A stretch of DNA of 29,182 nucleotides from an uncultured bacterium (GTDB lineage: Bacteria; Ratteibacteria; UBA8468; B48-G9; JAFGKM01). Positions 1-21,483 of this stretch are shown in pieces; positions within the stretch are counted from its first letter, which is position 1, and every line of letters starts with the position of its first letter. Location of the stretch: assembly GCA_964599135.1 (NCBI GenBank), contig CAZRDZ010000001.1, positions 1 to 29,182 on the forward strand, written 5' to 3'. The notes beneath the pieces were generated by a model. The model made no database searches and was not told where the DNA came from. It saw only the letters and a program-made list of their open reading frames with translations. The translations under genes and the position numbers were made by a program.

Positions 1-18
1 CATGGTTGCCAGAGACAT
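1..18 (-). CDS. Possible 5' end of a divergent gene truncated by the window edge (MSLATM...)
   Basis: ATG TCT CTG GCA ACC ATG on the minus strand just downstream of a consensus promoter. Too short to identify. Confidence 0.25.
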
Positions 19-22
19 ATAT

Positions 23-50
23 ATTATACTTTTTTTTCTCCATCTGTCAA
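23..50 (-). promoter_or_regulatory. Sigma70-type promoter pointing out of the left edge of the window
   Basis: Minus strand TTGACA (50-45), 16 nt spacer, TATAAT (28-23): perfect consensus hexamers. Two in-frame ATGs follow (18-16 and 3-1). Confidence 0.6.
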
Positions 51-198
51 CAGAACACCATCCCTCAAAAAAATCTCCTATAAATATGTGGTCCTGATAC
101 TTTCTTCTTAAAATTACTTGAGAAAGGCAGGACAGGAGAAATTGTTTTTTATAAAACTGCAAAAGAAATCAGGATAAATTTATAACTTACTTTTTTCC

Positions 199-228
199 TT
201 GACAGAAACATCGTTTTTGTGGTAATTT
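199..228 (+). promoter_or_regulatory. Sigma70-type promoter for tRNA-Phe/secA
   Basis: TTGACA 199-204; extended -10 TG-G-TAATTT (TG 220-221, hexamer 223-228), 18 nt spacer; ends 8 nt before the tRNA 5' end. Confidence 0.65.
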
Positions 229-236
229 AAATTTGA

Positions 237-308
237 GCCGGGGTAGCTCAGTGGTAGAGCGCAGCCCTGAAAAGGCTGGCGTGGACAGTTCGATTCTGTC
301 CCCCGGCA
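237..308 (+). tRNA. tRNA-Phe (anticodon GAA)
   Basis: Full cloverleaf: acceptor GCCGGGG/CCCCGGC, D-arm GCTC-AGTGGTA-GAGC, anticodon arm CAGCC-CTGAAAA-GGCTG (GAA 269-271), T-arm GACAG-TTCGATT-CTGTC, discriminator A308. It is followed by CCT, so CCA is not fully encoded. Confidence 0.97.
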
Positions 309-334
309 CCTTTCCAAGGGAGGCAGGAAATTTA

Positions 335-3300
335 ATGGGATACTACGAAGACCTTTTAGAAAAGTTAAAAATTTTAAATCCAGGAACAAAATATTTTATT
401 AACAGGGTATTTAATAAAGAGAAATATTCATTCCTTATAGAATGTATTTCCCTCCTTAAAAAAATAAATGAAAAAGAAGAAGAAGTAAAAAATCTTACAA
501 GAGAGCAGATGAGGGAGAAAACAGAAGAATTTAAGAAAAGGATATCTGATGGAGAGCCAATTGATAATTTTATTGTGGATGGTTTTGCTCTTGTAAGAGA
601 AGCAGCAAGAAGAACTCTCAATATGCGACATTTTGATGTCCAGATTATAGGAGGAATTGTTCTTCATAAAGGAAAAATTGCTGAAATGGTAACGGGGGAG
701 GGAAAAACGCTTGTTGCTACACTCCCTCTTTATCTGAATGCTCTCAGTGGAAAGGGATGCCATCTTGTAACTGTAAATGATTATCTTGCAAAAAGAGATA
801 CTCAATGGATGGGCGCAATTTTTGATTATCTTGGTCTTTCTGTCGGTTGTATCATATCTGTTAAGGAAGCAAAAGGACCTTACTCTGCTTCTGCTTTTAA
901 GTTTGACACGACATATCTTCCTGCTGATTCAAGATTTCTCTATCTTTATCCAGTTGAAAGAAAACAGGCATATCAGTGTGATATAACTTATGGAGTTGGA
1001 AGCGAATTTGGATTTGATTACTTAAGAGATAATATGGCAATAAGAAAGGAAGACCAGGTTCAGAGAGAACTCAATTATGCAATAATTGATGAAGTTGATT
1101 CAATTCTAATCGATGAAGCAAGAACTCCTCTTATCATTTCAGGTCCTTCAGAAGAAACTCCTCATCTTTATTATGAAATTGACCGCCTTGTAAGAAAACT
1201 TATTAAAGATACCGATTTTATTGTTGATGAGGAAGCACAGAGTGTTGTTCTTACAGAAGAAGGAATAAGAAAATGTGAGAGGATGCTCGGTGTGAAAAAT
1301 CTTTATGATGGAGCCCATACGGAGGTAGTTCATAAAATAAATCAGGCACTGAGGGCACATGCATTTTTCAAAAGGGATAAAGAATATGTTGTAAGAGACG
1401 GGAAGGTTATCATTGTTGATGAATTCACAGGAAGGTTAATGCCTGGAAGAAGATGGAGTGATGGGTTGCATCAGGCAATAGAAGCAAAAGAAGGTGTTTC
1501 TATAGAAAGTGAAAATCAAACCCTCGCAACAATTTCTTTCCAGAACTATTTTAAATTATATAAGAAAATAGCAGGGATGACAGGGACCGCTTTGACTGAA
1601 GCGATTGAATTTAAAGAAATTTATAAGCTTGATGTAATCGCAATCCCTACGAATAAACCACTGAGAAGAACAGAATATGATGATGAAATATACAGAACCG
1701 AAAGAGAGAAATTTAAAGCAATTACAGAAGAAATCAAGCAACTCCATGAAAAAGGAAGACCTGTTCTTGTTGGAACAATCTCAATTGAAAAAGCAGAAAA
1801 ATTGAGCAGATATTTAAGGAGGGCAAACATTCCCCATAATGTCCTTCATGGAAAGAATCACGAAGCAGAAGCAGCAATAATTGCTCAGGCAGGAAAATTT
1901 AAAGCAGTAACAATTGCAACACAGATGGCAGGAAGAGGAGTGGATATAATCCTGGGAGGAAATCCAGAAATAATAGCGAGAGAAGAAACTATAAAAACAA
2001 TCTGGTCAAAAAAAGGTGGTAAAAAAACAATTAAAAAGAAAGAATTTTCTGAAATTATATCCGAACTTGAAGAAAATTATAAAAAGAAAACCGGGCAAAT
2101 AGAAAAAGAGTATGGAGAAAAACTTTCAAATCTTAAAAAAATATTGAATGAGAAAGAGAGAAATTTCTATTCCCTTGAATCAAAAGCAAGAGAAATTTTT
2201 GAAAAGGAAATCTTCAAGAAAATAACAAAAGAAACCTTTGAAAAAATTAATCTCCGTCTGGATAAATTGAAAGAAAAGTATGAAAATGCCAACTCTCAAT
2301 TTCTTTCATTACAGGAAAAGTTTAAAGATAAACCAGAGAGACTTAAAGAACCAAGAGAAATAGCAGGTAAGGCATACAGGGACCTTGTTCTTTACAAACA
2401 ATCAATTAAGAAAAAATACGGAATTTTTTTGAAAGAAGATATTGAAGGACAGAGAAATCAGTTGAGAGAACTTTTAGAAAATTTCAAAATAGAAACTGAC
2501 TATATAAAAAATATAATATCACAGATTGAAAGATTAAAAGAGACAATTGAAAAATATGTGGAAGTTATTGAAAATGTTTTCTCTTCCCTGAAACTTGATA
2601 ATGTTAAAAAAGCAACTGAAAAATATAAAAACTTCCTGAACAAATTCATAAAAAACATTTCAGAGAAAAAAGAAAATGTAGAGCAGATTTATCAACAATT
2701 TGAAAAAGAGGAAGAAAGAACATACGAAAATTATCTTAAAGTTATTGAGCAGACAGAAAAGAAAATTTTCACAACATTTTTTCAGAATCTTTCTTCTGTT
2801 GAGAAAGAATATTTTGAAACATTGAAAGAATATGAAAGTCAGCATAAAAGTTATGAAGAACTTTTGAAGAAAATTAGAGAGGAATACGAAAAAGAGAGAG
2901 GAAAAATTGAGGAAGAATGGCAGAAGGCAAGAGAAGAACTTGAAAAAAGCCCTGAAGAATTCAAGGAAGTTTACCAGACCCTTTTAGAAAAATATAAAAA
3001 ACCATGGGAACAAGAACATAAAAAGGTTGTTGAACTGGGAGGACTTCATGTTATTGGAAGTGAAAGATATGAAGCAAGAAGAATTGATAATCAGTTAAAA
3101 GGTAGAGCAGGAAGACAGGGAGACCCTGGCTCATCAAAGTTTTTTCTCTCTCTTGAAGATGACCTGTTAAGAATTTTTGGTTCTGACCGACTTATGGGAT
3201 TAATGGGGAAAATGCCTGAAGGAGAAAAAATAACCCATCCACTAATAACAAAAATGATAAATAATGCTCAGAAAAAAGTTGAAGGACGAAATTTTGAAAT

Positions 3301-4144
3301 AAGAAAACAACTTGTTGAATTTGATAATGTTCTTAATGAGCAAAGAAATGTTATATATGCAATAAGGCAGAACTTCCTTGAGGGTAAAAATGTTGAAGAG
3401 TATATAAAACAGTTTACAGATGAAATTATTAACAACCTTTTTGATGAATTTTTCAGTTTGAGTGTAAAACCATTTCACTGGAATGTTGAAGGTCTTAAAG
3501 TTTCTTTAAGGAGAATATTCAATGCTGATTTTGAAATACCTTCTGTTGACAATATATCAAATCCTTCTAATTTTAGAGAAGAACTTATGGATGATATAAA
3601 AAATAAAATTTTTGCTCTTTATAAGGAAAAAGAGAAAGAAATAGGTGCTATCTTTTCAGAAATACAGCGTCTTATTATCTTGCAGATTATAGATAATAGA
3701 TGGAAATCTCACTTAAGGGCTATTGATGAACTGAAGGAAGGAATAAGTTTAAGGTCATATGCTCAGAGAGACCCTCTTCTTGCCTATAAGCATGAAGGGT
3801 ATAAACTATTCCAGGAAATGCTTTTTGCAATAAGAGAAGAAAGTTTATCTGCAATATTTAATATAAGAATATCTGAAGAAAGACCTTCCATTCCAGTTGA
3901 AAGGAAACAATTAGTGAGAACTAATTATATACATAAACAGTTTGGACAGTTTGATACTGTTTCAGCAACAGATCAGCAACAACCCCAGTCAGTTGAACCT
4001 GTAAAAACTCCTTTTGCGCCACCATCACCATCTGTTGGAGTAAAACAGAAGCCAGTGGTAGCAGGAAAGAAAGTCGGAAGGAATGATCCCTGTCCCTGTG
4101 GAAGCGGGAAAAAATATAAACACTGCTGTGGAAAAAATGTATAA
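335..4144 (+). CDS. secA: Preprotein translocase ATPase SecA (1269 aa) with a large insertion in the VAR region
   Basis: Motifs MVTGEGKT, VTVNDYLAKRD, FGFDYLRDNM, DEVDSILIDEARTPLIISG, GRRWSDGLHQAIEAKE, MAGRG, RRIDNQLKGRAGRQGDPG; C-terminal SEC-C motif GRNDPCPCGSGKKYKHCCG. Start moved from TTG 233 (which runs through the tRNA) to ATG 335, preceded by GGAGG 319-323. Confidence 0.97.
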   Translation: MGYYEDLLEKLKILNPGTKYFINRVFNKEKYSFLIECISLLKKINEKEEEVKNLTREQMREKTEEFKKRISDGEPIDNFIVDGFALVREAARRTLNMRHFDVQIIGGIVLHKGKIAEMVTGEGKTLVATLPLYLNALSGKGCHLVTVNDYLAKRDTQWMGAIFDYLGLSVGCIISVKEAKGPYSASAFKFDTTYLPADSRFLYLYPVERKQAYQCDITYGVGSEFGFDYLRDNMAIRKEDQVQRELNYAIIDEVDSILIDEARTPLIISGPSEETPHLYYEIDRLVRKLIKDTDFIVDEEAQSVVLTEEGIRKCERMLGVKNLYDGAHTEVVHKINQALRAHAFFKRDKEYVVRDGKVIIVDEFTGRLMPGRRWSDGLHQAIEAKEGVSIESENQTLATISFQNYFKLYKKIAGMTGTALTEAIEFKEIYKLDVIAIPTNKPLRRTEYDDEIYRTEREKFKAITEEIKQLHEKGRPVLVGTISIEKAEKLSRYLRRANIPHNVLHGKNHEAEAAIIAQAGKFKAVTIATQMAGRGVDIILGGNPEIIAREETIKTIWSKKGGKKTIKKKEFSEIISELEENYKKKTGQIEKEYGEKLSNLKKILNEKERNFYSLESKAREIFEKEIFKKITKETFEKINLRLDKLKEKYENANSQFLSLQEKFKDKPERLKEPREIAGKAYRDLVLYKQSIKKKYGIFLKEDIEGQRNQLRELLENFKIETDYIKNIISQIERLKETIEKYVEVIENVFSSLKLDNVKKATEKYKNFLNKFIKNISEKKENVEQIYQQFEKEEERTYENYLKVIEQTEKKIFTTFFQNLSSVEKEYFETLKEYESQHKSYEELLKKIREEYEKERGKIEEEWQKAREELEKSPEEFKEVYQTLLEKYKKPWEQEHKKVVELGGLHVIGSERYEARRIDNQLKGRAGRQGDPGSSKFFLSLEDDLLRIFGSDRLMGLMGKMPEGEKITHPLITKMINNAQKKVEGRNFEIRKQLVEFDNVLNEQRNVIYAIRQNFLEGKNVEEYIKQFTDEIINNLFDEFFSLSVKPFHWNVEGLKVSLRRIFNADFEIPSVDNISNPSNFREELMDDIKNKIFALYKEKEKEIGAIFSEIQRLIILQIIDNRWKSHLRAIDELKEGISLRSYAQRDPLLAYKHEGYKLFQEMLFAIREESLSAIFNIRISEERPSIPVERKQLVRTNYIHKQFGQFDTVSATDQQQPQSVEPVKTPFAPPSPSVGVKQKPVVAGKKVGRNDPCPCGSGKKYKHCCGKNV

Positions 4145-4190
4145 AAGTTGTGGAAAACTTGTGGAAAATGGAAAAATTTGAGGTGGAAAA
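4127..4190 (-). promoter_or_regulatory. DnaA-box cluster upstream of and overlapping the dnaA start
   Basis: TGTGGAAAA (reverse complement TTTTCCACA, fits TTWTNCACA) at 4127-4135, 4149-4157 and 4160-4168; one-mismatch GGTGGAAAA at 4182-4190. Confidence 0.85.
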
Positions 4191-5463
4191 CCTCTCAAAT
4201 GTTATTTTTAAAAATATTCAGGAAAGGATTAATAACCCGAGAGCATTTGATATATGGATAAAGCCAGTAAAAATTATTGATTATGATGGAGAAACTCTCA
4301 GTATACAGATACCAAACAGGGCTTTTTATCGCGGGTTTTCTTCCTTTATTGAAATAATAAAAGAAGAATTTTCAAAAATATATGGTTTTTTTCCAAAGAT
4401 TGAAATTTCTTATGGAGAGGAAGAAAACACATCTAAATCTCTAATTGAATCCACTCTTAATCCAGAATATACATTTGAAAATTTTGTTGTTGGTCCCTGT
4501 AACCGTCTTGCTCATGCCGCTGCACTGGCAGTATCTCAATCACCAGGGGTTGCTTACAACCCACTTTTTCTTTATGGGGGAGTTGGTCTTGGAAAAACCC
4601 ATCTTATGCAGGCAATAGGTCATTATGTAAAAAACAGAGGGGACTTAAAAATGGCATATATCCCTGCTGAATTTTTTGTAAATGAGTATATACAGAGTAT
4701 TAAAAATAAGAAAACAGCAAATTTCAGAAATAAGTTCAGGAATCTTGATTTTCTTCTTATAGATGATATTCATTTTATTGCAGGAAAAGGTGGCTCTCAA
4801 GAAGAGTTTTTTCACACATTTAATTTTCTTTATGATAATAAAAAGCAGATTATCTTATCAAGCGACAGACCTCCAAAAGAAATTACCGCAATTGAAGAAA
4901 GAATAATATCAAGATTTGAATGGGGACTTGTTGTTGACCTGCAACCCCCTGACTTTGAAACAAGAGTTGCGATATTAAAGAAAAAAGCAGAAATTAGGAA
5001 TATTGTTATAAATGATGATATAATATTTTTAATAGCAGAAAAGGTAAAAGAAAATGTAAGAATTCTTGAAGGAATTTTAAACAGGATTCTTGCTCTTTCA
5101 AAATTAATGAATACTGAAATAAATCAGGAGTTAGTTCTTGAAATAATTGAGGGATTTAAAAGAAGTTCAAAAAAACAAATTACAATGGATTTAATAATGG
5201 AAAAGGTTTGTAATTATTTTAATGTTTCTGAAAGAGAGATAAAAAGTGCAAAAAGGGTAAAAAATATACTAATTCCAAGACAGATTGCAATGTATCTTAC
5301 GAGGGAATTAACAAATAGTTCTTTAAATTCTATAGGAGAATATTTTGGTGTGAAAGACCATACGACAGTTATTAATGCGTGTAAAAAGATAAAAAATTTA
5401 ATTGATAAAGATAATTATATAAGAAGTGCAGTAGGAAATATAAAAAGAGGATTAAATGAATAA
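4150..5463 (+). CDS. dnaA: Chromosomal replication initiator DnaA
   Basis: LNPEYTFENFVVG, YNPLFLYGGVGLGKTHL (Walker A), LLIDDI, QEEFFHTFN, RFEWGL, RQIAMYL, DHTTV. Start is uncertain: GTG 4150, ATG 4168 or GTG 4183. Confidence 0.98.
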   Translation: MENLWKMEKFEVENLSNVIFKNIQERINNPRAFDIWIKPVKIIDYDGETLSIQIPNRAFYRGFSSFIEIIKEEFSKIYGFFPKIEISYGEEENTSKSLIESTLNPEYTFENFVVGPCNRLAHAAALAVSQSPGVAYNPLFLYGGVGLGKTHLMQAIGHYVKNRGDLKMAYIPAEFFVNEYIQSIKNKKTANFRNKFRNLDFLLIDDIHFIAGKGGSQEEFFHTFNFLYDNKKQIILSSDRPPKEITAIEERIISRFEWGLVVDLQPPDFETRVAILKKKAEIRNIVINDDIIFLIAEKVKENVRILEGILNRILALSKLMNTEINQELVLEIIEGFKRSSKKQITMDLIMEKVCNYFNVSEREIKSAKRVKNILIPRQIAMYLTRELTNSSLNSIGEYFGVKDHTTVINACKKIKNLIDKDNYIRSAVGNIKRGLNE

Positions 5464-5564
5464 TTTTTCCACAAGTTTTCCACATCATAATTTATTGTGT
5501 CTTAAGAGTTTAGATAAGAAAATCATTAAAACCACATTTTCTATGATTACTAATGGAGGTAAAA
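5464..5564. other. Probable replication origin (oriC core) in the dnaA-dnaN intergenic region
   Basis: Two DnaA boxes followed by an AT-rich stretch (5485-5552), in the canonical dnaA-dnaN position. Confidence 0.65.
5465..5484 (+). promoter_or_regulatory. Tandem DnaA boxes downstream of dnaA
   Basis: TTTTCCACA at 5465-5473 and 5476-5484 (11-bp spacing). Confidence 0.85.
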
Positions 5565-6659
5565 ATGGAAATAATAGTAAATAGTAAAGAATTGGAAAAT
5601 GCTTTAAGTTGTATTTCAAAAGTTCTTCCTTCAAAATCAACAATGGAAATTTTATCTGGTATTTTAATTGAAGGAAAAGATGAACTAAATCTTATTTCAA
5701 CAGACCTTGAAAATACAATTAAAGTTTCAATGAAATGTAATTTTAAAAAAGGTTCTATTTTAATTCCAGGGAAACAGTTTATATCTTTAATAAAACAAAT
5801 TCCTGATGAAGAAATAAAAATTACACAAATTGAAAATGAAGTTGAAATTAGTAATGAAAATATAAAATATAAATTTATATCAATGAATACAGATGACTTT
5901 CCTAAAATTTCAAAAATAACTCCAAAAATAAACTTTTCTTTAAATGGATTAATTTTAAAAGAAGCGATAGAAAAAATAAAGTTCTGTGTTGACCCTGATG
6001 AACCAAGACCTCATTTTAAAGGTGGATTACTTGAAGTAAAAAATAATAAAATAAGTCTTGTTGGAACTGATGGTAGACGCCTTTCTTTGAGAACAATTGA
6101 AACAGAAAGTAAAAATGAAAAAATAAAAGTTTTACTCTCTGTAAAACTTATGAATATTCTTTCTGACCTTTTAATTGACGAGAATATTGATATTTCAATT
6201 GGTAAAAATCAAATTGTATTTAAATTTTCAAATATACTCTTAATTTCTCAACTTCTATCCGGGGCAGAGGACTTCCCTGACTATGAAAAAGTTATTCCTG
6301 ATGAAAAGAAAAGTAAAGTTGCAATTATTGAAAGAGAAAATTTTCTTTCTACTTTAAAAAGAACTTCACTTTTTACAAACGAAAGATATAATAAATTGAT
6401 GATTTCAATTGGGAAATCATCTATGGTAATATCTGTTTCTTCTCCTGAAATAGGACAGGGACAGGAAAGAATACCTGTTGAATATAAAGGAGAAGAAGTA
6501 AATTTTGCTTTTCCACCTGAGTTTTTGATTGAGTTCTTACAGAAAGTTGATGATGAAAAAATAATTTTTGCTTTTACAGAGAATACAAAACCTGTGCTGT
6601 TAAGACCTGAAAGTGATAGTAATTTTATTTATGTTTCAATGCCGCTTAAAACAGAATAA
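5565..6659 (+). CDS. dnaN: DNA polymerase III beta sliding clamp
   Basis: 364 aa after dnaA; STDLE, FKGGLL, VGTDGRRLS, FPDYEKVIP, C-terminal MPLK. Start set at ATG 5565 after GGAGGT 5555-5560. Confidence 0.96.
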   Translation: MEIIVNSKELENALSCISKVLPSKSTMEILSGILIEGKDELNLISTDLENTIKVSMKCNFKKGSILIPGKQFISLIKQIPDEEIKITQIENEVEISNENIKYKFISMNTDDFPKISKITPKINFSLNGLILKEAIEKIKFCVDPDEPRPHFKGGLLEVKNNKISLVGTDGRRLSLRTIETESKNEKIKVLLSVKLMNILSDLLIDENIDISIGKNQIVFKFSNILLISQLLSGAEDFPDYEKVIPDEKKSKVAIIERENFLSTLKRTSLFTNERYNKLMISIGKSSMVISVSSPEIGQGQERIPVEYKGEEVNFAFPPEFLIEFLQKVDDEKIIFAFTENTKPVLLRPESDSNFIYVSMPLKTE

Positions 6660-6931
6660 TGGAAAAAATAGGAGATATAACAAAAAGGGTTATTTCAAAC
6701 TGGATTTTTGAAGATGAAGAAAGAAATTTTGATATTGAAGTTGTATGGAATAGAATAATTGATGAAAATTTAAAAGGGCATACATATGTAAATGGACTGA
6801 AAAATAATGTTTTATATATAAAAGTTGATTCAAGTTGCTATTTGAGTATTCTGAATATGAAAAGAAAAGAGATAATTAAGAAATTGGAAAATAAAGGTTT
6901 CAAAATAAAAAAGATGATTTTAAAGTTATAA
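6659..6931 (+). CDS. DUF721/DciA-family protein (helicase-loading factor)
   Basis: 90 aa after dnaN, with pattern W..II...L..HT.......LYIKVDSS....L....EII.KL typical of DUF721. Confidence 0.75.
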   Translation: MEKIGDITKRVISNWIFEDEERNFDIEVVWNRIIDENLKGHTYVNGLKNNVLYIKVDSSCYLSILNMKRKEIIKKLENKGFKIKKMILKL

Positions 6932-6943
6932 AAAGGAGGTTTT

Positions 6944-7816
6944 ATGTTTGAAGGTTCAATTGTAGCAATAGTAACACCAATAAAAAATGGAGAAGTTGAC
7001 AGAGAGGGTTATAGAAAACTTCTTGAATTCCAGATAGAAAATGGCACTGATGGAATTCTGACCTGTGGCTGCACAGGAGAACCAGCAACTCTATCAATGC
7101 AAGAACACAAAGACATTATTAAATATACTGTTGAAATAGTTAATGGTAGAATTCCTGTAATCGCTGGAACTGGCTCAAATAATACAGAAGAAGCAATTGA
7201 ACTTACAAGTTTTGCCAGACAGGCAGGATGTGATGCTGTTTTACTGATTACTCCTTACTATAATAAACCAACTCAAAAAGGGCTTTATCTCCATTATAAG
7301 AAAATTGCAGAGAGTGTTGATATTCCGATAATTTTATATAATGTCCCTTCAAGAACGGGTATATCAATATCTCCAGAAGTAGTTGCTGAACTTTCAAAAA
7401 TTAAAAATATTATCGGGATAAAAGAAGCATCTGGAAGTATTGACCAGGTATGTAAAATAATTTCTCTTGTTGAAGATGATTTTCTTGTTCTTTCAGGCGA
7501 TGATTCTCTAACTCTTCCAATTATATCTGTGGGGGGAAAAGGAGTTGTTTCTGTTGCTGCAAATATTGTCCCCAGAGATATGTCTGATATGGTAAAATTT
7601 GCTCTTAATGGTGAAATAGAAAAAGCAAGGAAAATACATTATAAACTTTTTCCTGTTTTTAAAGTTCTTTTTATAGAAACAAATCCCATACCTGTAAAGA
7701 CATCTCTTTCAATTATGGGTATGATACAGGCAGAATGGCGACTTCCCTTAACTTCTCCATCTGATGAAAATTATAAGAAAATTGAACAGACATTAAAAAA
7801 ATGTGGAGTTATTTAA
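6944..7816 (+). CDS. dapA: 4-hydroxy-tetrahydrodipicolinate synthase
   Basis: GCTGE, AGTGSNNT, PYYNKP, LYNVPSRTG, IKEASG, SGDD, ETNPIPVK; GGAGG RBS. Confidence 0.95.
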   Translation: MFEGSIVAIVTPIKNGEVDREGYRKLLEFQIENGTDGILTCGCTGEPATLSMQEHKDIIKYTVEIVNGRIPVIAGTGSNNTEEAIELTSFARQAGCDAVLLITPYYNKPTQKGLYLHYKKIAESVDIPIILYNVPSRTGISISPEVVAELSKIKNIIGIKEASGSIDQVCKIISLVEDDFLVLSGDDSLTLPIISVGGKGVVSVAANIVPRDMSDMVKFALNGEIEKARKIHYKLFPVFKVLFIETNPIPVKTSLSIMGMIQAEWRLPLTSPSDENYKKIEQTLKKCGVI

Positions 7817-12025: not shown

Positions 12026-12355
12026 ATGTCAAAAGAAGTTGTTAATTTGAATAGCGAAAGTTTTGATAAGTTTCTTCAAGAGAATGAAGTCGCAGTAGTT
12101 GATTTCTGGGCTGTCTGGTGTATGCCCTGTCTTATGGTTGCTCCAATAATGGAAAATCTTGCCAAAAAATACGAAGGAAAAATTGCTTTTGGGAAAGTAA
12201 ATGTTGATGAAGAAAGAGATATAGCAATGAGATTTGGTATTATGTCAATTCCAACAATTATAATTTTTAAAGACGGTAAAATGGTTGACCAGATTGTTGG
12301 AGCAATGCCTGAAAAAATACTTGAAGAAAAATTGCTTGAAGCAACATCTCGTTAA
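12026..12355 (+). CDS. trxA: Thioredoxin
   Basis: VVDFWAVWCMPC, KVNVDE, GIMSIPT; about 109 aa. Start set at ATG 12026 after GGGAG (alternative ATG 12014). Confidence 0.92.
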   Translation: MSKEVVNLNSESFDKFLQENEVAVVDFWAVWCMPCLMVAPIMENLAKKYEGKIAFGKVNVDEERDIAMRFGIMSIPTIIIFKDGKMVDQIVGAMPEKILEEKLLEATSR

Positions 12356-13311
12356 ATAACTGACTTATAAATCATATCAACAAGTTCCATTGTTTTTACT
12401 GCATCTGAAAAGTTTGTTTTTGGAAGTTTCTTTTTCTCAATACATTCAATGAAATGTCTGTTTTCATCAAGAAATCCAGCAATCTCAAACAGTTCCTTTT
12501 TCCCTGTAAATTCCTCAACATTTATAATTTCTCCCTCTTCTTTCCCATCTTTATAAATAACTGCTTCTTTTTCAGGGTTAATGAAAGCAACTATTCCTTT
12601 CCCGTGTATCTCTACGGAAAATATTCTTTTTCCACTTGTCCAGTTTGCTGATAATATTCCTGTTGCTCCTGAAGAAAATTCAATTAATGCACAGAAAAAG
12701 TTATCATAATCAGCAAATAAATTTCTAACAATACTTTTAACCTTTTTTACTTCTCCCCCTATTTCTCTCAAAAGGTCAACAGAATGTATAGCATCACAGG
12801 TTAATATATCAATTGCACCATTGTAATATGGCGGCTGATTTAAGTAATATTTGAAGAAGTTTGTTTGAGTCATTATTACTTCTCCTCTCTCTTCTATCCT
12901 TCTTTTGCTTTCAACTATAAGAGGAGCAAATCTTCTCTGAAAACCAACCATTGTCAGCACCCCTTTTTTCTCTGCAAGATTTGCCATCTGTCTTGTCTGT
13001 TCAGATGTTACTCCTGGCGGCTTTTCTATAAAAATATTTAATTTTTCGTTCAAACAGTGTATTACTATATCAAAAAGCTGATACGGAGGCATAATTATAT
13101 AAACTGCATCAGGGGCAGTTTCCTCAATCATTTTTTTATAATCATTGAAAGTATTTGAAATCTTATATTTTTTAGATGTTTCTTTCAATTTTTCTTCATT
13201 CAGGTCGCATATTCCAACAATTTCCACATTTTCAATTTTTGAAAGAGATGGATAATGAACCAAATTTGCCATACTTCCCGCTCCAATAACATTAATTTTT
13301 ACTTTACTCAT
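12352..13311 (-). CDS. Gfo/Idh/MocA-family NAD(P)-dependent oxidoreductase
   Basis: N-terminal VIGAG Rossmann motif, FIEKPP, VGFQRRF, DAIHSVD. Confidence 0.88.
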   Translation of the reverse strand: MSKVKINVIGAGSMANLVHYPSLSKIENVEIVGICDLNEEKLKETSKKYKISNTFNDYKKMIEETAPDAVYIIMPPYQLFDIVIHCLNEKLNIFIEKPPGVTSEQTRQMANLAEKKGVLTMVGFQRRFAPLIVESKRRIEERGEVIMTQTNFFKYYLNQPPYYNGAIDILTCDAIHSVDLLREIGGEVKKVKSIVRNLFADYDNFFCALIEFSSGATGILSANWTSGKRIFSVEIHGKGIVAFINPEKEAVIYKDGKEEGEIINVEEFTGKKELFEIAGFLDENRHFIECIEKKKLPKTNFSDAVKTMELVDMIYKSVI

Positions 13312-13883
13312 TTTTTAACACCTTTTTCAAGTAATTTTTCAATAAATTTTTTTATTTTTTCCACTGTTTCTTTAATTTCTTTATTTATCACCCTATAATT
13401 ATAGTACTTCAACAAAGTTTTTCTTTCTTCTTTTGCTGCTTCCAATCTTCTTTTTATTTCTTCTTCACTTACATCTCCCCTTTTTTTCAGTCGTTTTTCC
13501 TGTTCTTTTGCCGAAGGGGGTAAAATCCCTATTAAAATTGCATCAGGGAATATTTTTTTTACACTCATTCCTCCCTGAGTATCAATAACAAGAAGAACAT
13601 TTTCTCCTTTTTTTAATTTCTCCATAACTTCTTTTTTTGGTGTTCCATAAAAGTTTCCGTAAACATTAGCATATTCAAGAAATTCTCCATTTTTAATCTT
13701 TTCTTTAAAATCTTTTTCAGTTAAAAATTTATAATCAATGCCGTTTTTTTCACCAATTCTTGGTTTTCTTGTTGTGCAGGTTGTGATACTTTTAAGAGAT
13801 GGGATTGCTTCAAGGAGTAATTTCTGGATAGTCGTTTTACCAGTCCCTGAAGGCGCAGAGATAACAAAAATTTTACCTTTCAT
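13308..13883 (-). CDS. gmk: Guanylate kinase
   Basis: SAPSGTGKTT, TTRKPRIGEKNGIDYKF, EYANVYGNFYGT, IDTQG. Confidence 0.95.
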   Translation of the reverse strand: MKGKIFVISAPSGTGKTTIQKLLLEAIPSLKSITTCTTRKPRIGEKNGIDYKFLTEKDFKEKIKNGEFLEYANVYGNFYGTPKKEVMEKLKKGENVLLVIDTQGGMSVKKIFPDAILIGILPPSAKEQEKRLKKRGDVSEEEIKRRLEAAKEERKTLLKYYNYRVINKEIKETVEKIKKFIEKLLEKGVKK

Positions 13884-14843
13884 TTATGGAGAAAATTTAC
13901 CTTTTGTTTTTAATTCCTTTATTGCTCTTTCTGCAATGTTTTTAAAATCTGTATTTAACAATTTTTCCCACTGTTTCATTGCCATATCAATCTGCCCATT
14001 TTTCTCATAGGCGTGTGCCAAACAATCATCAACATAGTCAGGATGGGGAAATTTAATTGCTTTTTTCAAATATCTAACAGAATTTTTATAATCCATACCT
14101 TTATGATAATAAATCCATCCAGTTTCAAAGTAAAGGTCATACCTATCAGAATTATATACAACTCCTTTCTTATCAAATTCAATTCCCTGAGTGTACCAGA
14201 AAAGCATTTCTTTTACACAGGCAACAAACTGTTTATCTGACTCAACAAAAAAAGCATTTTTACTATTCTTTTCATACCTGTAATTATTAAGAAAGTGCTC
14301 GTAATTATTCATCTCTGAAATTAAATCAGGAATTTTATCCTCTTGCATACCTTTTTTAAGCCCAAGATTTTTAATAAGATAAATAGTTCTACCTCCAATT
14401 GCAAGAACTTTCTGTAAGTTTTTCTTCTCCTTCTCTGACAATTTTTTAACTTTTTCATTATACTCCTTTATCAAGTTTTGCTTTGCGTCCCTCACTTCAG
14501 CAAAAATATTATAGGACATATGCCATCCACCAACAGCCCAGACATTTATATAATGTGGCTGTAGCCATGCAATTGCTTCTAAAAGGGGTAGCATTTTATA
14601 ATGTTGTCCTGAATGCCAGTAATTTTCTATATTTAACCATAAAAGGTCTGCTGCCAATCCTTTAAAACCGGAAAGGACTAAACTTCCTGCAACCTGTCCA
14701 GGCATAAGGAGAAGCCCACTTTCAAGTTCTTCAACCTTTTTGCTATAATCAATACTTACCTGAAGAAATCCAAGAGGAATATAAAGTAACAAAGCAATAA
14801 AGAGAAAAACCCAGTTTTTACTATTAATTTTATTCTTTCTCAT
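13884..14843 (-). CDS. Membrane-anchored TPR-like protein associated with the ABC transporter
   Basis: N-terminal TM helix; GFKGLAADLLW, W..GGWHMSYN, YDLYFETGWIYY and TPR-like C-terminal helices; overlaps the permease stop. Confidence 0.65.
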   Translation of the reverse strand: MRKNKINSKNWVFLFIALLLYIPLGFLQVSIDYSKKVEELESGLLLMPGQVAGSLVLSGFKGLAADLLWLNIENYWHSGQHYKMLPLLEAIAWLQPHYINVWAVGGWHMSYNIFAEVRDAKQNLIKEYNEKVKKLSEKEKKNLQKVLAIGGRTIYLIKNLGLKKGMQEDKIPDLISEMNNYEHFLNNYRYEKNSKNAFFVESDKQFVACVKEMLFWYTQGIEFDKKGVVYNSDRYDLYFETGWIYYHKGMDYKNSVRYLKKAIKFPHPDYVDDCLAHAYEKNGQIDMAMKQWEKLLNTDFKNIAERAIKELKTKGKFSP

Positions 14844-15604
14844 ACCTCCCTCTTCTGGAAGAAATAAAGACCTATAAGTATAACAATCGCTATATACAAA
14901 ACACCATATATCAATGTCTTAAATACATAATTCCATGAAACAGAAACTCCAATCACAACTTTATCCCTTATTGCAAAATTTTCATAATTTGGAACAACTG
15001 TGTAAATTATCTGCCCAATTCCTTTCAAAATAGTATTTTCAACTCTTTCAGTTAGTTGTTTACCATACGAAATTAAATGTCCAACTATATAAAGAAAAAA
15101 AGAAAGTATTATATTGAAAGCATCAGTGGCAAATGTAGTAACAGTTAATGTTATTGTGCTTATCAAAACAAGTTCAACATATATAAGAAGTAGTGTTTTG
15201 AATGTTTCAATGTCAGGAGGGCTTTTTTTAAATATGAGAAGTCCAATAAAGAATAAACTTATAAGGACAAAATTAAGAAGCAGTATCAAACACATACCAA
15301 GAAATTTCCCGATAAATAAATTTCCTCTTGTGACTGGCTTTGTAAGGAGTGTGTAAATTGTCCTTTTCTCTATCTCTCCAGAAAGAGCACCAATGGCACC
15401 GAATATTGCTATTAAAGCACCAAAAAATTCAATGGTTGAAAAACTCACATCTTTAATCATCTTAAGTTCTTCTTCAGCAGTAAGAAAAGAAAAGAACTTT
15501 GAAGCACCTATTACAATGAAAGCAAAAACTAAAAGGATATACAGAGTTCTTTTCCTCAATGATTCCTTAAATGTGTTTACCGCAACTATCCATGCTTTTT
15601 TCAT
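14840..15604 (-). CDS. ABC-2-type transporter permease
   Basis: VAVNTFKESLR, EIEKRTIYTLLTKPVTR..LFIGKFLG; about 6 TM segments. Confidence 0.88.
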   Translation of the reverse strand: MKKAWIVAVNTFKESLRKRTLYILLVFAFIVIGASKFFSFLTAEEELKMIKDVSFSTIEFFGALIAIFGAIGALSGEIEKRTIYTLLTKPVTRGNLFIGKFLGMCLILLLNFVLISLFFIGLLIFKKSPPDIETFKTLLLIYVELVLISTITLTVTTFATDAFNIILSFFLYIVGHLISYGKQLTERVENTILKGIGQIIYTVVPNYENFAIRDKVVIGVSVSWNYVFKTLIYGVLYIAIVILIGLYFFQKREV

Positions 15605-16362
15605 TATATCTCCCTTTTATACCTGCTATCAAAATCTTCAATTGTTTTTACAAAAAGTTCTTCAAGGGTTTCTGCGTTATACCGGGAAATCAAACCATCA
15701 AGAGTTCCTGTTGCTAAAAGATTTCCTCTGTGAAAAATTGCTATTCTATTGCAAACTCTTTCAACTTCTGAAAGGAAATGACTTGAAAGTAAGATTGTTT
15801 TCCCCTGTTTATTCAATTCAAGTATAAGGTCCCTTGTTTCAAGACATCCAATAGGGTCAAGACCTGTTGTTGGTTCATCAAGTATAAGAATTTTTGGGTC
15901 ATTAAGAAGGGCAGATGCAAGTCCAATTCTTTCAAGCATACCTTTTGAATAATGTTTTAAAGTTAACTTTTTAGCATCAGATAATTTAACAAGATTAAGG
16001 AGATATTCAGTTCTTTCTTTTATCGCCTGTTTATCCATATCAAAAAGTTTCCCATAAAAATAAAGAAGTTCAGGACCTGTAAGATAATCATAGTAATAGG
16101 GGTTTTCAGGTAAAAATCCAATATATTTTTTAACTCTCACATCAAACTGGCTTTCCCCCATTATGCTTATTTCACCATCAGTTGGAAACAAAATGCCGAG
16201 AAGAAGTTTAAGACAGGTTGTTTTACCTGAACCATTGGGCCCAAGAATTCCAAATATTTCTCCTTCCTCAATTTCAAGATTTACTTTATTTAATCCAATA
16301 ACTTTTTTTCCTCTTCCAGGAGTATAAATTTTTGTCAATTCCCTTGTCTCAATAATTGCCAT
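15604..16362 (-). CDS. ABC transporter ATP-binding protein
   Basis: GPNGSGKTT, YSKGM signature, LILDEPTTGLDP, SSH. Start moved to ATG 16362 after GAGGAGG; the longer ORF start at 16422 lies inside the promoter. Confidence 0.92.
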   Translation of the reverse strand: MAIIETRELTKIYTPGRGKKVIGLNKVNLEIEEGEIFGILGPNGSGKTTCLKLLLGILFPTDGEISIMGESQFDVRVKKYIGFLPENPYYYDYLTGPELLYFYGKLFDMDKQAIKERTEYLLNLVKLSDAKKLTLKHYSKGMLERIGLASALLNDPKILILDEPTTGLDPIGCLETRDLILELNKQGKTILLSSHFLSEVERVCNRIAIFHRGNLLATGTLDGLISRYNAETLEELFVKTIEDFDSRYKREI

Positions 16363-16413
16363 AAAAACCTCCTCACTTAATTTTTTCCCCGAAGATTCTC
16401 TTTTAATAGAATT

Positions 16414-16442
16414 ATCATACATTGAACAAAAAGAAGTGTCAA
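16414..16442 (-). promoter_or_regulatory. Sigma70-type promoter for the ABC trio and gmk
   Basis: Minus strand TTGACA (16442-16437), 17 nt spacer, TATGAT (16419-16414). Confidence 0.7.
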
Positions 16443-16461
16443 AAAAATGTACAGGGTAAAT

Positions 16462-16475
16462 CCAAACCGGTTTGG
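16462..16475. promoter_or_regulatory. Perfect 14-bp palindrome CCAAACCGGTTTGG (candidate operator)
   Basis: Exact palindrome in a 59-nt intergenic gap, about 20 nt upstream of the -35 at 16442. Confidence 0.45.
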
Positions 16476-16481
16476 TCTTTT

Positions 16482-17804
16482 TTAAAATTCTATACTTTTA
16501 AACTGGGGTAAATAATCCCTGTTTTTTTCAAACATCTCCTTGACCATTTTCTTTATTTCTCTCAGTGAAAGAACACTTGCAGAAAGAGGGTCATAACAAG
16601 CAGCATGATAAACCAATTCGGCATTTCCTGTTAGAGCACCTTCAACTGCCATCTCTTCTACTGCAATATTGACATTATTTAAAGCAGCACATTGAGGAGG
16701 AAGTGGACCAACATGTAAAGGTTTAAAATCCCCTTTTGAAACACAAACAGGAACTTCAACACATGCCCGGTAAGGAAGATTTGGAATAATGTTTTCGTTT
16801 GGAACATTTCCATTAAAAATATATGGCTCTCCTCCCATATAAGCGTTTATTATATAAGCAGCGTATTCTTTCCCTCTTTTTAAATCAACTGGTTCTTTAA
16901 GCCAATTTTTAATAGCATCTTTCCATGTATCTTCTCTTTTTAAATATTCATTAAGGATGTAAGCATACTCTCCTGGATTCCAACCAGTTCCATGTTTGCA
17001 ATATTTTTCAATTAGATCTGGTCTTTTTCTGAACCACCAGTTATATTCTGAATTGTGGCCGCTTGATTCAGTTACATAATAACCAAGTGCAAGAAACATT
17101 TCGTTTCTAACTATTTCTTCTTTATATATCTCTTCATTCTCAGTTATTGCTTTTCTTATGAGTGGATATGCATCTTTTCCATTCTTTTTAAATTCAATAT
17201 ACCATGCCTGATGATTTATTCCTGCACAGGTATATGTTATTTCTTCAGGTTTTGCTCCTATCCATCTGGTAAGCATTTCGGCTGTCCCCTGAACACTGTG
17301 ACATAGACCAGTAACTTTAACCGAAGTTGCTTTCTGCATTGCTCTGCACAACATAGCCATAGGGTTGGTATAATTTAGAAGAATCGCATCAGGACATAAA
17401 TTTTCAATATCTCTGCAGATATCTAACATAACAGGTATGGTTCTTAATGCTCTAAAAATTCCTGCAATTCCCCTTGTGTCTCCAACACAAAAATCAACAC
17501 CATACTTTTTTGGTATTTCAACATCATACCTCCATATATTAACCCCCCCTGCAAGAATGGTACATAAAACAGCATCAGCCCCTTTTAATGCTTTCTTTCT
17601 ATCCATTGTAACTTCAATTTTTGCAGGATACTTTCCTTCTTCAATAATCTTTTCCACAGCAATTTTTGAAAATTTAAGTCGTTCCTCGTCTATATCCATT
17701 AAAGATATTGTAGAATCCCTTAAAAGGGGAAAAGAAAGTATATCTCTCACAAGTGCTCTTGTGAATCCAAAACTACCTGCTCCTATAAAAGCAATTTTTG
17801 CCAT
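16482..17804 (-). CDS. Glycoside hydrolase family 4, alpha-galactosidase (MelA-like)
   Basis: [56 protein letters not shown]. Confidence 0.9.
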
Positions 17805-17842
17805 TTTTTCTCCTTTTTGTAATTGATTCTTAAATAAGAAGA

Positions 17843-17871
17843 GTTTTAATATATTTTATATAATTTGTCAA
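17843..17871 (-). promoter_or_regulatory. Possible promoter for the GH4 gene embedded in the 3' end of the upstream gene
   Basis: TTGACA (17871-17866), 17 nt spacer, TAAAAC (17848-17843). The -10 lacks the conserved final T. Confidence 0.35.
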
Positions 17872-18625
17872 AAAGAAATGAGAGATAAATCCCTTTTTTA
17901 CCAAAAAATTCAATATCTTTCTTTAATTTTCTGTAAATTGAGTTTAATTTTTTCTTTAATTCTTCAGTATTTCCTTCTTTATCCTCAATATCATCCCTTA
18001 TCTGAAAAGCGATACCAAAGTTTTTAGCAATTTTTTCAAGAAGTTTCTTTTTCTCTTTTCTTATTTTTTTGAAAAAACAGGGACCTGAAAAGCAAACCTC
18101 AAAAAGTTTTCCTGTTTTTTTCTCATCTATCTCTTTTTTTGTTTTTTTATCAATCTTTCTGTTTTTATAAATCATATCAAGAACCTGTCCACCTGCCATT
18201 CCTTCTGAACCAATCGCATCTGCAACAAATTTTATAAGTGGGACACAATCAGTTTCTGAAATAAGTTTAAATCCAAGAGCAATAAGAGCATCTCCAGCAA
18301 GAATTGCAATATCTTCTCCAAATTTCTTATGGCAGGTTAATTTCCCTCTTCTGTAATCATCATTATCCATTGCTGGAAGGTCATCATGAATTAAAGAGAA
18401 ATTATGAATAAGTTCTATTCCACAGGCAAATGGCATCAATTTTTTCTTATCAATCCCCAGAATCTCCCCAACAAGCAAAATTATTAAAGGTCTCAATCTT
18501 TTCCCCCCTGAAAAAACAGAATATCTCATTGCCTTATGTAAAATGGGTGGAAAACTTTTTTCAGAAGGTAAGTATTTATCAAGATATTTTTCAATTTCTT
18601 TTCTCAAATTTTCTATTTTAGTCAT
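17846..18625 (-). CDS. ispA: Short-chain polyprenyl diphosphate synthase (IspA-like)
   Basis: [23 protein letters not shown] (FARM), [18 protein letters not shown] (SARM). Confidence 0.88.
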
Positions 18626-21436: not shown

Positions 21437-21443
21437 AAAATAA

Positions 21444-21471
21444 ATTATAAAAGAAAAAGAAAGGAATTCAA
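21444..21471 (-). promoter_or_regulatory. Sigma70-type promoter immediately upstream of the WecA-like ATG
   Basis: TTGAAT (21471-21466), 16 nt spacer, TATAAT (21449-21444); 7 nt to ATG 21436. Confidence 0.55.
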
Positions 21472-21483
21472 AATTTAACTTTG

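What the first reader, a model, noticed from the sequence alone, without database searches (positions are those of the whole stretch)
4127..5552. Perfect 20-bp inverted DnaA-box doublet brackets dnaA: a symmetric bipartite origin
Seen: TGTGGAAAACTTGTGGAAAA (4149-4168) and TTTTCCACAAGTTTTCCACA (5465-5484) are exact reverse complements, including the 2-nt linker. Upstream boxes start at 4127, 4149, 4160 and 4182 (spacings 22, 11, 22), all in the same 11-bp helical phase; the first is written into the secA Cys-Gly-Lys codons. Five of the seven exact TTTTCCACA copies I found in the window flank dnaA (the others are at 17650 and 26851). Established: bipartite oriC regions flanking dnaA with DnaA-mediated looping occur in B. 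subtilis and H. pylori, and TTTTCCACA is the box variant reported for cyanobacteria. Inference: a very compact split origin in which phased arrays loop out dnaA and unwind the AT-rich tract at 5485-5552. An exact inverted repeat could also allow inversion of dnaA.
Basis: partly seen in the sequence, partly recalled or inferred. Interest (0 to 1): 0.65.

Follow-up and report, generated by a model that had tools for sequence, protein, structure and literature searches.

The report
DnaA double boxes bracketing dnaA
Two perfect pairs of binding sites for the replication initiator DnaA sit on either side of its own gene in an uncultured Ratteibacteria bacterium; they most likely mark a very compact but otherwise ordinary chromosome origin and dnaA self-control region, and the exact inverted repeat is a by-product of both pairs matching the consensus.

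Summary
TGTGGAAAACTTGTGGAAAA (4149-4168) and TTTTCCACAAGTTTTCCACA (5465-5484) are exact reverse complements. Five of the seven exact TTTTCCACA copies in the window flank dnaA, against about one copy expected by chance.

Each arm is a canonical "double DnaA box": two 9-mers in the same orientation, 2 bp apart. Both pairs are conserved in all five genus-level lineages (DnaA 83-99% identical), while the surrounding non-coding DNA diverges by up to about 47%. The 2-nt linker matches in only three of those five lineages, so selection acts on the boxes, not on the inverted repeat.

The box at 4127 is imposed by the conserved SecA Cys-Gly-Lys codons.

In more distant relatives the 86-123 bp dnaA-dnaN spacer shows an origin-unwinding layout. 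A distal box is followed by an AT-rich stretch, then proximal box(es) 41-43 or 51-54 bp later, then CTA/TTA "DnaA-trio" repeats. In this window that module is degenerate.

No inversion was seen in about 25 assemblies or in contigs from four metagenomes. No recombinase gene is in the window.

Verdict: a probable compact origin of the B. subtilis / H. pylori type plus a dnaA autoregulation site. It is a new member of a known kind and of modest interest.

The parts
4127..4135 (-). Exact DnaA box (TTTTCCACA on the - strand) written into the secA codons Cys-Gly-Lys of the SEC-C zinc motif
   Evidence: The residues CCGK are conserved in all relatives. Synonymous variants (TGCGGAAAA, TGTGGGAAA) occur in 5 of 19 lineages. 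The exact box is kept in 14 of 19, against about 0.34-0.42 expected from codon usage.
4149..4168 (-). Upstream double DnaA box: two exact 9-mers with a 2-bp linker. It fills most of the 23-bp secA-dnaA gap, and its last base is the A of the dnaA ATG.
   Evidence: It is conserved in all genus-level relatives, with only the linker and 0-1 box positions varying.
4182..4190 (-). One-mismatch box GGTGGAAAA inside dnaA codons 5-8 (Glu-Val-Glu-Asn)
   Evidence: It is conserved in four genus-level lineages (AGTGGAAAA in L174) but is GATGGAAAA in L090.
4168..5463 (+). dnaA (431 aa; Bac_DnaA ATPase and C-terminal HTH domains)
5465..5484 (+). Downstream double DnaA box: two exact 9-mers with a 2-bp linker, starting 2 bp after the dnaA stop codon
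   Evidence: It is conserved in all genus-level relatives. It is homologous to the 'ATTCACA-NN-TTTTaCACA' pair of family-level relatives.
5485..5527 (.). AT-rich central spacer: fast-evolving in sequence but constant in length
   Evidence: The spacer is 101 bp with no indels in W, L082 and L083, although it differs by 28% overall. Its duplex stability is not exceptional.
5528..5536 (+). Degenerate proximal box AAAACCACA, 52 bp after the second box of the pair
   Evidence: It occupies the position of the strong proximal boxes (TTTTTCACA / TTTTCCACA) of family-level relatives, which lie 41-43 or 51-54 bp from the distal box. It is lost in L083 and L090.
5541..5552 (+). DnaA-trio-like repeats CTA TGA TTA CTA, 4 bp after the degenerate box and abutting the dnaN SD (5555-5559)
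   Evidence: In this window there are only 2 consecutive strict trios, which is not significant alone. At the same position, 10 of 19 related lineages have at least 3 strict [CT]TA trios, against a background of 0.11 per kb. Orientation relative to the box matches the published unwinding modules (PMC8287927 supplement).
5565..6659 (+). dnaN (sliding clamp), followed by dciA at 6659-6931

Best explanation
The two arms of the inverted repeat are two consensus 'double DnaA boxes'. Each is a pair of 9-mers in the same orientation, 2 bp apart, which is the unit that binds a cooperative DnaA dimer. They point outwards from dnaA.

They belong to the conserved secA-dnaA-dnaN replication-origin region of a Ratteibacteria lineage. 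The proposed roles are as follows.
- The 101-bp dnaA-dnaN spacer is the core origin. DnaA bound at the downstream pair and at a weak proximal box about five helical turns away would nucleate a DnaA filament on CTA/TTA trio repeats next to the dnaN ribosome-binding site and open the DNA there.
- The upstream cluster is the pair overlapping the dnaA start codon plus two box-like sequences in coding DNA. It most likely lets DnaA repress its own gene. It does so either at a promoter buried in the secA 3' end or as a roadblock to read-through from secA.
- The upstream cluster may also assist initiation by DnaA-DnaA bridging, as in the bipartite origins of B. subtilis and H. pylori.

Shown: the sites exist, are non-random and are conserved footprints, and the family-wide spacer has box-trio architecture with turn-wise spacing.

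Inferred: DnaA binding, the site of unwinding, autoregulation and looping.
For: - Statistical excess and clustering of exact boxes.
- Both pairs are conserved in five genus-level lineages, while the central spacer diverges by up to about 47% and the linkers vary.
- secA-dnaA-dnaN-dciA synteny, with tiny intergenic gaps, is found in all relatives examined.
- In E. coli, pairs of boxes 2-3 bp apart are the preferred DnaA target (PMC11317965).
- TTTTCCACA pairs followed by trios form the unwinding module of Synechococcus (PMC8287927 supplement).
- In family-level relatives, a distal box is followed by proximal box(es) at 41-43 or 51-54 bp, and never at 44-50 bp.
- After the proximal box, at least 3 strict [CT]TA trios occur in 10 of 19 lineages, against 0.11 per kb background.
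- This is the only cluster of exact boxes in the 29-kb window and in the roughly 40 kb seen in the 84% relative.
- mnmG and mnmE, which are often origin-proximal genes, lie within about 7-15 kb of dnaA in relatives.
Against: - No whole-genome skew, box census or coverage could be obtained.
- Total GC skew does not switch at dnaA. It switches at about 12.3 kb, following gene strand.
- Four-fold-site skew is weak or inconclusive.
- In this window and its genus the proximal box and trios are degenerate: AAAACCACA, only 2 consecutive trios, and the box is lost in L083 and L090. The strict requirement of a box within 16 bp of at least 3 trios is therefore not met by the strong pair.
- The AT-rich tract is not unusually unstable.
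- At 101 bp this would be shorter than the experimentally defined origins I recall, such as E. coli at about 245 bp and Thermotoga at 149 bp. Those figures are from my own knowledge and were not checked here.
Confidence: 0.62

Rival explanations
1. The pairs are purely transcriptional operators. The upstream pair autorepresses dnaA, and the downstream pair controls dnaN, through a promoter or a roadblock just after dnaA. The replication origin lies elsewhere in the genome.
For: - In E. coli, nearly all DnaA regulatory targets are double boxes 2-3 bp apart.
- The upstream pair overlaps the dnaA start codon and replaces the SD (AAGGGG / AAGGAG) seen in family-level relatives.
- A TATAAT-like hexamer (CATAAT 5486-5491; TATAAT in L081 and L082) directly follows the downstream pair.
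- No skew switch is seen at dnaA.
- The AT-rich tract is unremarkable.
Against: - The last position of the -10-like hexamer varies across the genus (T, C, G, A), which is unlike a selected -10 element.
- No usable -35 element is present, and the promoter scan found nothing in the spacer.
- The family-wide trio repeats and the turn-wise box spacing are origin features, not promoter features.
- From established knowledge, origins next to dnaA-dnaN are the commonest arrangement in bacteria.
Confidence: 0.27
2. The exact inverted repeat is a recombination substrate. dnaA is an invertible segment, or the two arms are homogenised by gene conversion, and this is the selected feature.
For: - The arms are an exact 20-nt inverted repeat.
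- The linker co-varies in two related lineages (CT/AG in this window, GT/AC in L082) and matches in 3 of 5 lineages. I estimate roughly p = 0.02-0.04 under empirical linker frequencies.
Against: - Two of the five lineages have non-matching linkers.
- Complementarity ends exactly at the box borders.
- All ~25 related assemblies have the same secA>dnaA>dnaN orientation.
- Contigs from four metagenomes cross both arms in the native orientation, with no strand-change joints.
- No recombinase or invertase gene is in the window.
- Inverting dnaA would separate it from its start context.
Confidence: 0.03
3. The boxes are a chance or coding-imposed pattern with no function of their own.
For: - The box at 4127 follows from conserved Cys-Gly-Lys with preferred codons.
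- The 4182 site lies in coding sequence.
- Background one-mismatch sites follow the coding strand.
Against: - The four boxes of the two pairs are non-coding, exact and paired at the canonical spacing.
- They are conserved while their surroundings diverge.
- None of 100 shuffles gave 7 copies.
Confidence: 0.02

Closest known systems
Bipartite oriC of Bacillus subtilis (incA/B - dnaA - incC) and its basal unwinding system (Richardson et al. 2019, PMC6669920; Pelliciari et al. 2021, PMC8287927)
   Same: - Box clusters lie on both sides of dnaA.
- The unwinding side faces dnaN.
- Boxes in 5'-TTxTCCACA-3' orientation are followed on the same strand by CTA/TTA trios.
- A distal box acts at helically phased distances.
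- The upstream cluster overlaps dnaA expression signals.
   Different: - The non-coding DNA totals only 23 + 101 bp, against several hundred bp in B. subtilis.
- The upstream neighbour is secA, with no room for a separate promoter region.
- The box variant is TTTTCCACA.
- No GC-rich cluster lies between box and trios.
- In this genus the strong pair lies about 56 bp from the trio-like repeats, and the proximal box is degenerate.
- No distinct AT-rich 27-mer is present; the trios run straight into the dnaN SD.
Helicobacter pylori oriC1/oriC2 and Clostridioides difficile oriC1/oriC2 (PMC8235120, PMC7561715)
   Same: Two box clusters bracket dnaA. In both species unwinding occurs in the dnaA-downstream subregion. 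The C. difficile trio sequence CTACTACTATTACTACTA closely resembles TTACTATTATTA of the family-level relatives.
   Different: Those origins are far larger and carry many more boxes: 5-19 per subregion in clostridia. Here there are 2-4 per side.
Cyanobacterial origins with TTTTCCACA boxes (Synechococcus elongatus BUS; Cyanothece, PMC4674748)
   Same: The box variant is identical. In S. elongatus a tandem pair of exact TTTTCCACA boxes precedes the trios.
   Different: In the S. elongatus entry of the BUS tables, the trios (GATGATGAT on the complementary strand) follow the tandem boxes after a 4-bp GC spacer. Neither is true of the strong pair here. From my own knowledge, unchecked here, the cyanobacterial origin also lies next to dnaN rather than bracketing dnaA.
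Double DnaA box as the general DnaA binding unit (Stringer, Fitzgerald and Wade 2024, PMC11317965)
   Same: Two same-orientation 9-mers are spaced 2 bp apart. This is exactly the geometry that E. coli DnaA needs for stable binding at regulatory targets and at low-affinity oriC sites.
   Different: That work is in E. coli with the TTATCCACA consensus. Binding by the Ratteibacteria DnaA is untested.

Membership tests
Double DnaA box (DnaA dimer site) | Two 9-bp DnaA boxes in the same orientation, separated by 2 or 3 bp | tested here: met
   Sites 4149-4157/4160-4168 and 5465-5473/5476-5484 are exact consensus with a 2-bp linker. The definition comes from PMC11317965.
Bipartite oriC flanking dnaA (B. 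subtilis / H. pylori type) | DnaA-box clusters both upstream and downstream of dnaA | tested here: met
   There are 4 sites at 4127-4190 and 2 (plus 1 weak) at 5465-5536. The arrangement is conserved in relatives.
Bipartite oriC flanking dnaA (B. subtilis / H. pylori type) | Lies at the replication start (strand-skew switch, or coverage peak) | tested here: inconclusive
Window GC skew follows gene strand. Four-fold-site TA skew is lower in secA than in downstream genes in 9 of 11 loci, but GC skew shows no difference and replicative skew is near zero.
Bipartite oriC flanking dnaA (B. subtilis / H. pylori type) | Both subregions are required and interact through a DnaA-mediated loop | not testable with these tools
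   This needs genetics, or electron microscopy / footprinting with purified DnaA.
Basal unwinding system (BUS: box(es) - spacer - DnaA-trios) | A DnaA box (at most 2 mismatches) within 16 bp upstream of at least 3 consecutive trios (NAN on the bound strand, consensus 3'-GAT-5'), in fixed orientation | tested here: inconclusive
   In this window, CTA TGA TTA CTA (5541-5552) lies 4 bp after AAAACCACA, which has 4 mismatches, and the run is broken by TGA. The strong pair is 56 bp away. The feature is met at the homologous position in 10 of 19 related lineages.
Basal unwinding system (BUS: box(es) - spacer - DnaA-trios) | An AT-rich unwinding region beyond the trios | tested here: inconclusive
   The trios abut the dnaN SD and coding start. 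The spacer is only in the top 3.5-5% of least stable windows.
dnaA autoregulatory operator | DnaA boxes overlapping the dnaA promoter or 5' end | tested here: inconclusive
   The pair overlaps the start codon. No convincing promoter was found in the secA 3' end. No RNA runs were available.
Invertible DNA switch | Inverted repeats flanking a segment, a cognate recombinase, and both orientations present in populations | tested here: not met
   The inverted repeat is present. No recombinase is in the window. Only one orientation is seen, both in all assemblies and in contigs from four metagenomes.

The most novel reading that the evidence does not exclude
The complete chromosomal origin of this lineage is squeezed into about 125 bp of non-coding DNA plus boxes written into the secA and dnaA codons. 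The two outward-facing double boxes are bridged by DnaA into a 1.3-kb loop that encloses dnaA. The same complex would then fire the origin and shut off (or insulate) dnaA expression. This would be one of the smallest natural origins, with initiation and initiator synthesis physically coupled. The partial co-variation of the two linkers would then reflect occasional gene conversion between the arms.
Probability: 0.15. Interest if true: 0.55.

Novelty: new member of a known kind. Interest (0 to 1): 0.3.

Why it matters
No origin appeared to be described for the candidate phylum Ratteibacteria in the two DnaA-box literature searches I ran. This locus gives a testable candidate, and it shows that the cyanobacterial-type TTTTCCACA box is used there.

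The extreme compaction makes it a convenient natural 'minimal origin' for in vitro unwinding assays. The secA-dnaA gap is 23 bp, the dnaA-dnaN spacer is 101 bp, and a box replaces the dnaA ribosome-binding site.

Across the family, the proximal box and trios are strong in some lineages and decayed in others, and the distal pair is strengthened where they decay. That gives a small comparative series on how unwinding modules drift. Otherwise the finding is what one expects next to dnaA.

Tried and rejected
2. Looking up the window's own DnaN to extend the contig: it is not on record.
3. Local replicative skew from four-fold degenerate sites in the window, in 10 relatives and in the left flank of the 84% relative. 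The test was underpowered. Only a small TA-skew difference between secA and the downstream genes appeared.
4. Gene orientation as an origin marker. A divergent switch lies upstream of tRNA-Phe/secA. Orientation is mixed further left, and this window flips to the minus strand after 12.3 kb, so it is uninformative.
5. The intergenic DNA upstream of tRNA-Phe/secA as an alternative origin. It holds no box cluster (window 1-236; one exact box in L083).
6. A dnaN promoter reading of the TATAAT-like hexamer after the pair. I rejected it as the main reading because its last base varies.
7. The 42-aa ORF that gene callers place over the spacer. It has no codon-position signature and is interrupted in L090 and many family-level relatives.
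8. Known RNA families in 3900-5800: none.
9. RNA runs to map transcripts: none available.
10. Inversion joints in metagenome contigs: none. These are assembled contigs, so rare variants would be missed.
11. A second dnaA-3'/spacer/dnaN-5' copy in L081. It is a chimeric contig with a poly-G junction.
12. One look-up of encoding contigs was lost to a coordinate slip.
Full report
**Observation**

The region was read directly. TGTGGAAAA occurs exactly at 4127, 4149 and 4160. Its complement TTTTCCACA occurs at 5465 and 5476. Two more exact copies lie inside genes at 17650 and 26851. Seven copies were found against 0.96 expected, and none of 100 dinucleotide-preserving shuffles reached seven.

The repeat finder reports arms 4149-4168 and 5465-5484 as 20 nt, 100% complementary, with 1296 nt between them (pair I5). 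The complementarity ends exactly at the borders of the two box pairs. A fourth upstream site at 4182 is GGTGGAAAA, one mismatch.

**Genes and organism**

Pfam assigns the following genes:
- SecA, up to 4144
- DnaA, 4168-5463
- the sliding clamp DnaN
- DciA, 6659-6931
- DapA, AccD and FolC

tRNA-Phe lies at 237-310, so secA starts at ATG 335, behind an AAGGGAGG site. dnaN most likely starts at ATG 5565, behind GGAGG at 5555-5559. This matches the 364-365 aa calls in relatives. The non-coding DNA is therefore 23 bp (4145-4167) plus 101 bp (5464-5564).

The closest species-representative genomes are MAGs labelled Candidatus Ratteibacteria or Omnitrophota, at 60-64% DnaA identity. Closer relatives at 83-100% exist in metagenomes. 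The sequence itself is held by hydrothermal-vent and marine-sediment metagenomes.

**What the arms are**

Each arm is two consensus 9-mers in the same orientation with a 2-bp linker. In E. coli, DnaA binds preferentially to exactly such pairs, 2 or 3 bp apart. Both boxes and the spacing are required, at oriC low-affinity sites and at nearly all regulatory targets (PMC11317965).

TTTTCCACA is the cyanobacterial box variant. In Synechococcus elongatus a tandem pair of exact TTTTCCACA boxes precedes the DnaA-trios (supplement of PMC8287927).

**Conservation within the genus**

I recovered five distinct lineages at 83-99% DnaA identity:
- the window with L081, L092 and L104
- L082 with L103
- L083-L089 with L175
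- L090
- L174

All carry both double boxes at the same positions, with at most one mismatched position per 9-mer. The centre of the spacer, by contrast, differs by up to about 47% between the window and L083 (28 of 101 positions overall). The boxes are therefore phylogenetic footprints.

The linker is not conserved. In box orientation, the upstream/downstream linkers are:

| Lineage | Upstream / downstream |
|---|---|
| window | AG / AG |
| L082 | AC / AC |
| L090 | AT / AT |
| L083 | AT / GG |
| L174 | CC / TT |

The perfect 20-bp inverted repeat is thus found only in the window's own species-level group. It is a by-product of two consensus pairs facing outwards.

Three linker matches in five lineages is more than I would expect. 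I estimate roughly p = 0.02-0.04 with empirical linker frequencies, and the lineages are not independent. I record this as an unexplained hint of concerted evolution, not as a finding.

**The other upstream sites**

The box at 4127 is TGT-GGA-AAA, the Cys-Gly-Lys of the SEC-C zinc motif (...KKYKHCCGKN*). These residues are conserved in all relatives. Synonymous variants that break the box (TGCGGAAAA, TGTGGGAAA) occur in 5 of 19 lineages. The exact box is kept in 14 of 19, against 0.34-0.42 expected from codon usage. That suggests at most mild extra constraint.

One 84% relative (L175) has about 190 bp inserted between the secA stop and the double box. The 22-bp phasing of the secA box with the pair is therefore dispensable.

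The 4182 site sits in dnaA codons 5-8 and is GATGGAAAA in L090.

In family-level relatives the position just before the dnaA ATG alternates between a DnaA box (TGTGGAAAAAATGG) and an ordinary Shine-Dalgarno (AAGGGGTAAAAAATGG). In the window's genus the second box of the pair ends on the A of the ATG and leaves no good SD. This placement is what one expects of an autoregulatory operator. No promoter could be identified in the secA 3' end, and no RNA data exist.

**The dnaA-dnaN spacer across the family**

In 19 distinct lineages the spacer is 86-123 bp long. It has a common plan, in this order:
1. A box or weak-plus-strong pair sits right after the dnaA stop.
2. An AT-rich stretch follows.
3. 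One or two proximal boxes follow, often abutting at 9-bp spacing.
4. A 2-11 bp gap follows.
5. CTA/TTA repeats such as TTACTATTATTA follow.
6. An A-run and the dnaN SD close the spacer.

The box-then-trio orientation on the same strand is that of published unwinding modules. In B. subtilis it reads TTATCCACA-AATCCACA-GGCC-CTACTATTACTTCTACTA. C. difficile has CTACTACTATTACTACTA.

At least three consecutive strict [CT]TA trios occur in 10 of 19 spacers, always at this position. The background is 0.11 runs per kb per strand in 158 kb of the same loci.

The distal-to-proximal box distance falls at 41-43 bp in seven lineages and 51-54 bp in five. None falls at 44-50 bp. The two classes differ by one helical turn. 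This recalls the helical phasing of the distal box in B. subtilis incC (PMC6669920). Phylogenetic non-independence tempers both statistics.

**The spacer in this window**

Here the module is degenerate. The proximal box is AAAACCACA (5528-5536), 52 bp after the second box of the pair. It is followed after TTTT by CTA TGA TTA CTA (5541-5552). That gives only two consecutive strict trios, which is not significant alone. The box remnant is lost in L083 and L090.

The spacer keeps exactly 101 bp in the window, L082 and L083 despite heavy substitution. This suggests a spacing constraint.

The AT-rich centre is not exceptional for a 31% GC genome. It is in the top 3.5-5% of least stable windows, and some coding segments are less stable. 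Membership in the basal unwinding system is therefore inconclusive for this window, although it is met in many relatives.

**Is it the origin?**

Those tests are whole-genome skew, a genome-wide box census and coverage.

- **Total GC skew:** within the window it is positive over 1-12 kb and negative beyond, simply following gene strand.
- **Four-fold degenerate sites, right of dnaA:** comparing plus- and minus-strand genes gives a replicative component near zero (GC +0.007, TA -0.04).
- **Four-fold degenerate sites, secA versus downstream genes:** secA has lower TA skew in 9 of 11 loci (pooled -0.068 against +0.020), but GC skew shows no difference.
- **Left flank of the 84% relative:** uninformative.
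- **Gene orientation:** mixed.

Positive circumstantial evidence:
- This is the only exact-box cluster in the 29-kb window and in about 40 kb around dnaA of the 84% relative.
- mnmG and mnmE lie within about 7-15 kb of dnaA in relatives.
- From established knowledge, origins adjacent to dnaA-dnaN are the commonest bacterial arrangement.

I put about 0.62 on the origin-plus-autoregulation reading. I put about 0.27 on the reading that the sites are only transcriptional operators and the origin lies elsewhere.

**Inversion**

- All ~25 related assemblies show secA>dnaA>dnaN.
- Contigs from four metagenomes cross both arms in the native configuration, and no strand-change joints were reported. Assembled contigs would miss rare variants.
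- No recombinase gene is in the window.
- The repeat does not extend beyond the boxes.

An invertible dnaA is very unlikely.

**Other checks**

- No Rfam family matches 3900-5800.
- The 42-aa ORF that gene callers place across the spacer shows substitutions spread evenly over codon positions. It is interrupted in L090 and many family-level relatives. It is probably spurious.

**Verdict**

The interpretation as a compact bipartite origin is plausible but only partly supported. The symmetry, the phasing of four boxes, the special AT-rich tract and the inversion idea are not supported. This is a new member of a known kind (bipartite origin with dnaA autoregulation) in an unstudied candidate phylum. 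Its compaction gives it modest interest.

Noticed in passing
L175:428-635 (84% relative): About 190 bp of GC-richer DNA is inserted between the secA stop codon and the upstream double box. The window and the other relatives lack it. It could be a small mobile element or an RNA gene, and it shows that this junction tolerates insertions.
   Followed up: no
L081:4356-5143 (98% relative, JGI contig of 5143 bp): The contig jumps from dapA back to the dnaA 3' end, spacer and dnaN 5' end, and then to an inverted dnaN piece. The first junction carries a poly-G run (gtgggggggggttt). This is a chimeric assembly, not a real origin duplication.
   Followed up: yes
window 5456-5584 and homologous places in L081, L082, L084, L086 and L087: Gene callers annotate a 42-aa ORF spanning the dnaA stop, the whole spacer and the dnaN start. 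An open frame across the spacer is seen in about 10 of 19 lineages, more than chance predicts. Substitutions show no codon-position bias, and the frame is broken in L090.
   Followed up: partly
L001-L010, L093-L101 dnaA-dnaN spacers: The distance from the distal to the proximal DnaA box is bimodal: 41-43 bp or 51-54 bp, never 44-50 bp. The two classes differ by one helical turn. The proximal boxes are often abutting pairs at 9-bp spacing.
   Followed up: partly
window 4149-4168 / 5465-5484 and relatives: The 2-nt linkers of the two double boxes are reverse-complementary in 3 of 5 genus-level lineages. This includes a co-ordinated change (CT/AG in the window, GT/AC in L082). It could be gene conversion between the arms, or chance.
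   Followed up: partly
window 4145-4170: dnaA in this genus has no recognisable Shine-Dalgarno. The position held by AAGGGG or AAGGAG in family-level relatives is occupied by a DnaA box whose last base is the A of the ATG. Gene callers disagree between ATG 4168 (431 aa) and GTG 4150 (437 aa).
   Followed up: partly
window 233-335: The long secA ORF from TTG 233 overlaps tRNA-Phe (237-310). The real secA start is ATG 335, behind AAGGGAGG. A near-consensus promoter (TTGACA at 200-205) precedes the tRNA.
   Followed up: partly
window 12352-28841: After a Fur/Zur-family regulator, an ArsR-family regulator, OsmC and thioredoxin, all 18 remaining genes lie on the minus strand. They include gmk, ABC transporters, a GH4 enzyme, alr, pyrF, mraY-like, ispG, rseP, dxr and uppS. 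The 84% relatives instead continue on the plus strand with mnmG after folC. The right flank has therefore been rearranged between close lineages.
   Followed up: no
L083:13154-14767, L085:7263-8843: The 84% relatives carry an extra 526-537 aa ORF with no Pfam hit between dciA and dapA. It is absent from the window.
   Followed up: no
window 3000-7000 laid on runs X2 and X4: Contig depth spikes at 4072-4205 (124-176, against about 10 elsewhere). The cause is that contigs of other organisms match the highly conserved SecA SEC-C motif codons. It is not a copy-number signal.
   Followed up: no
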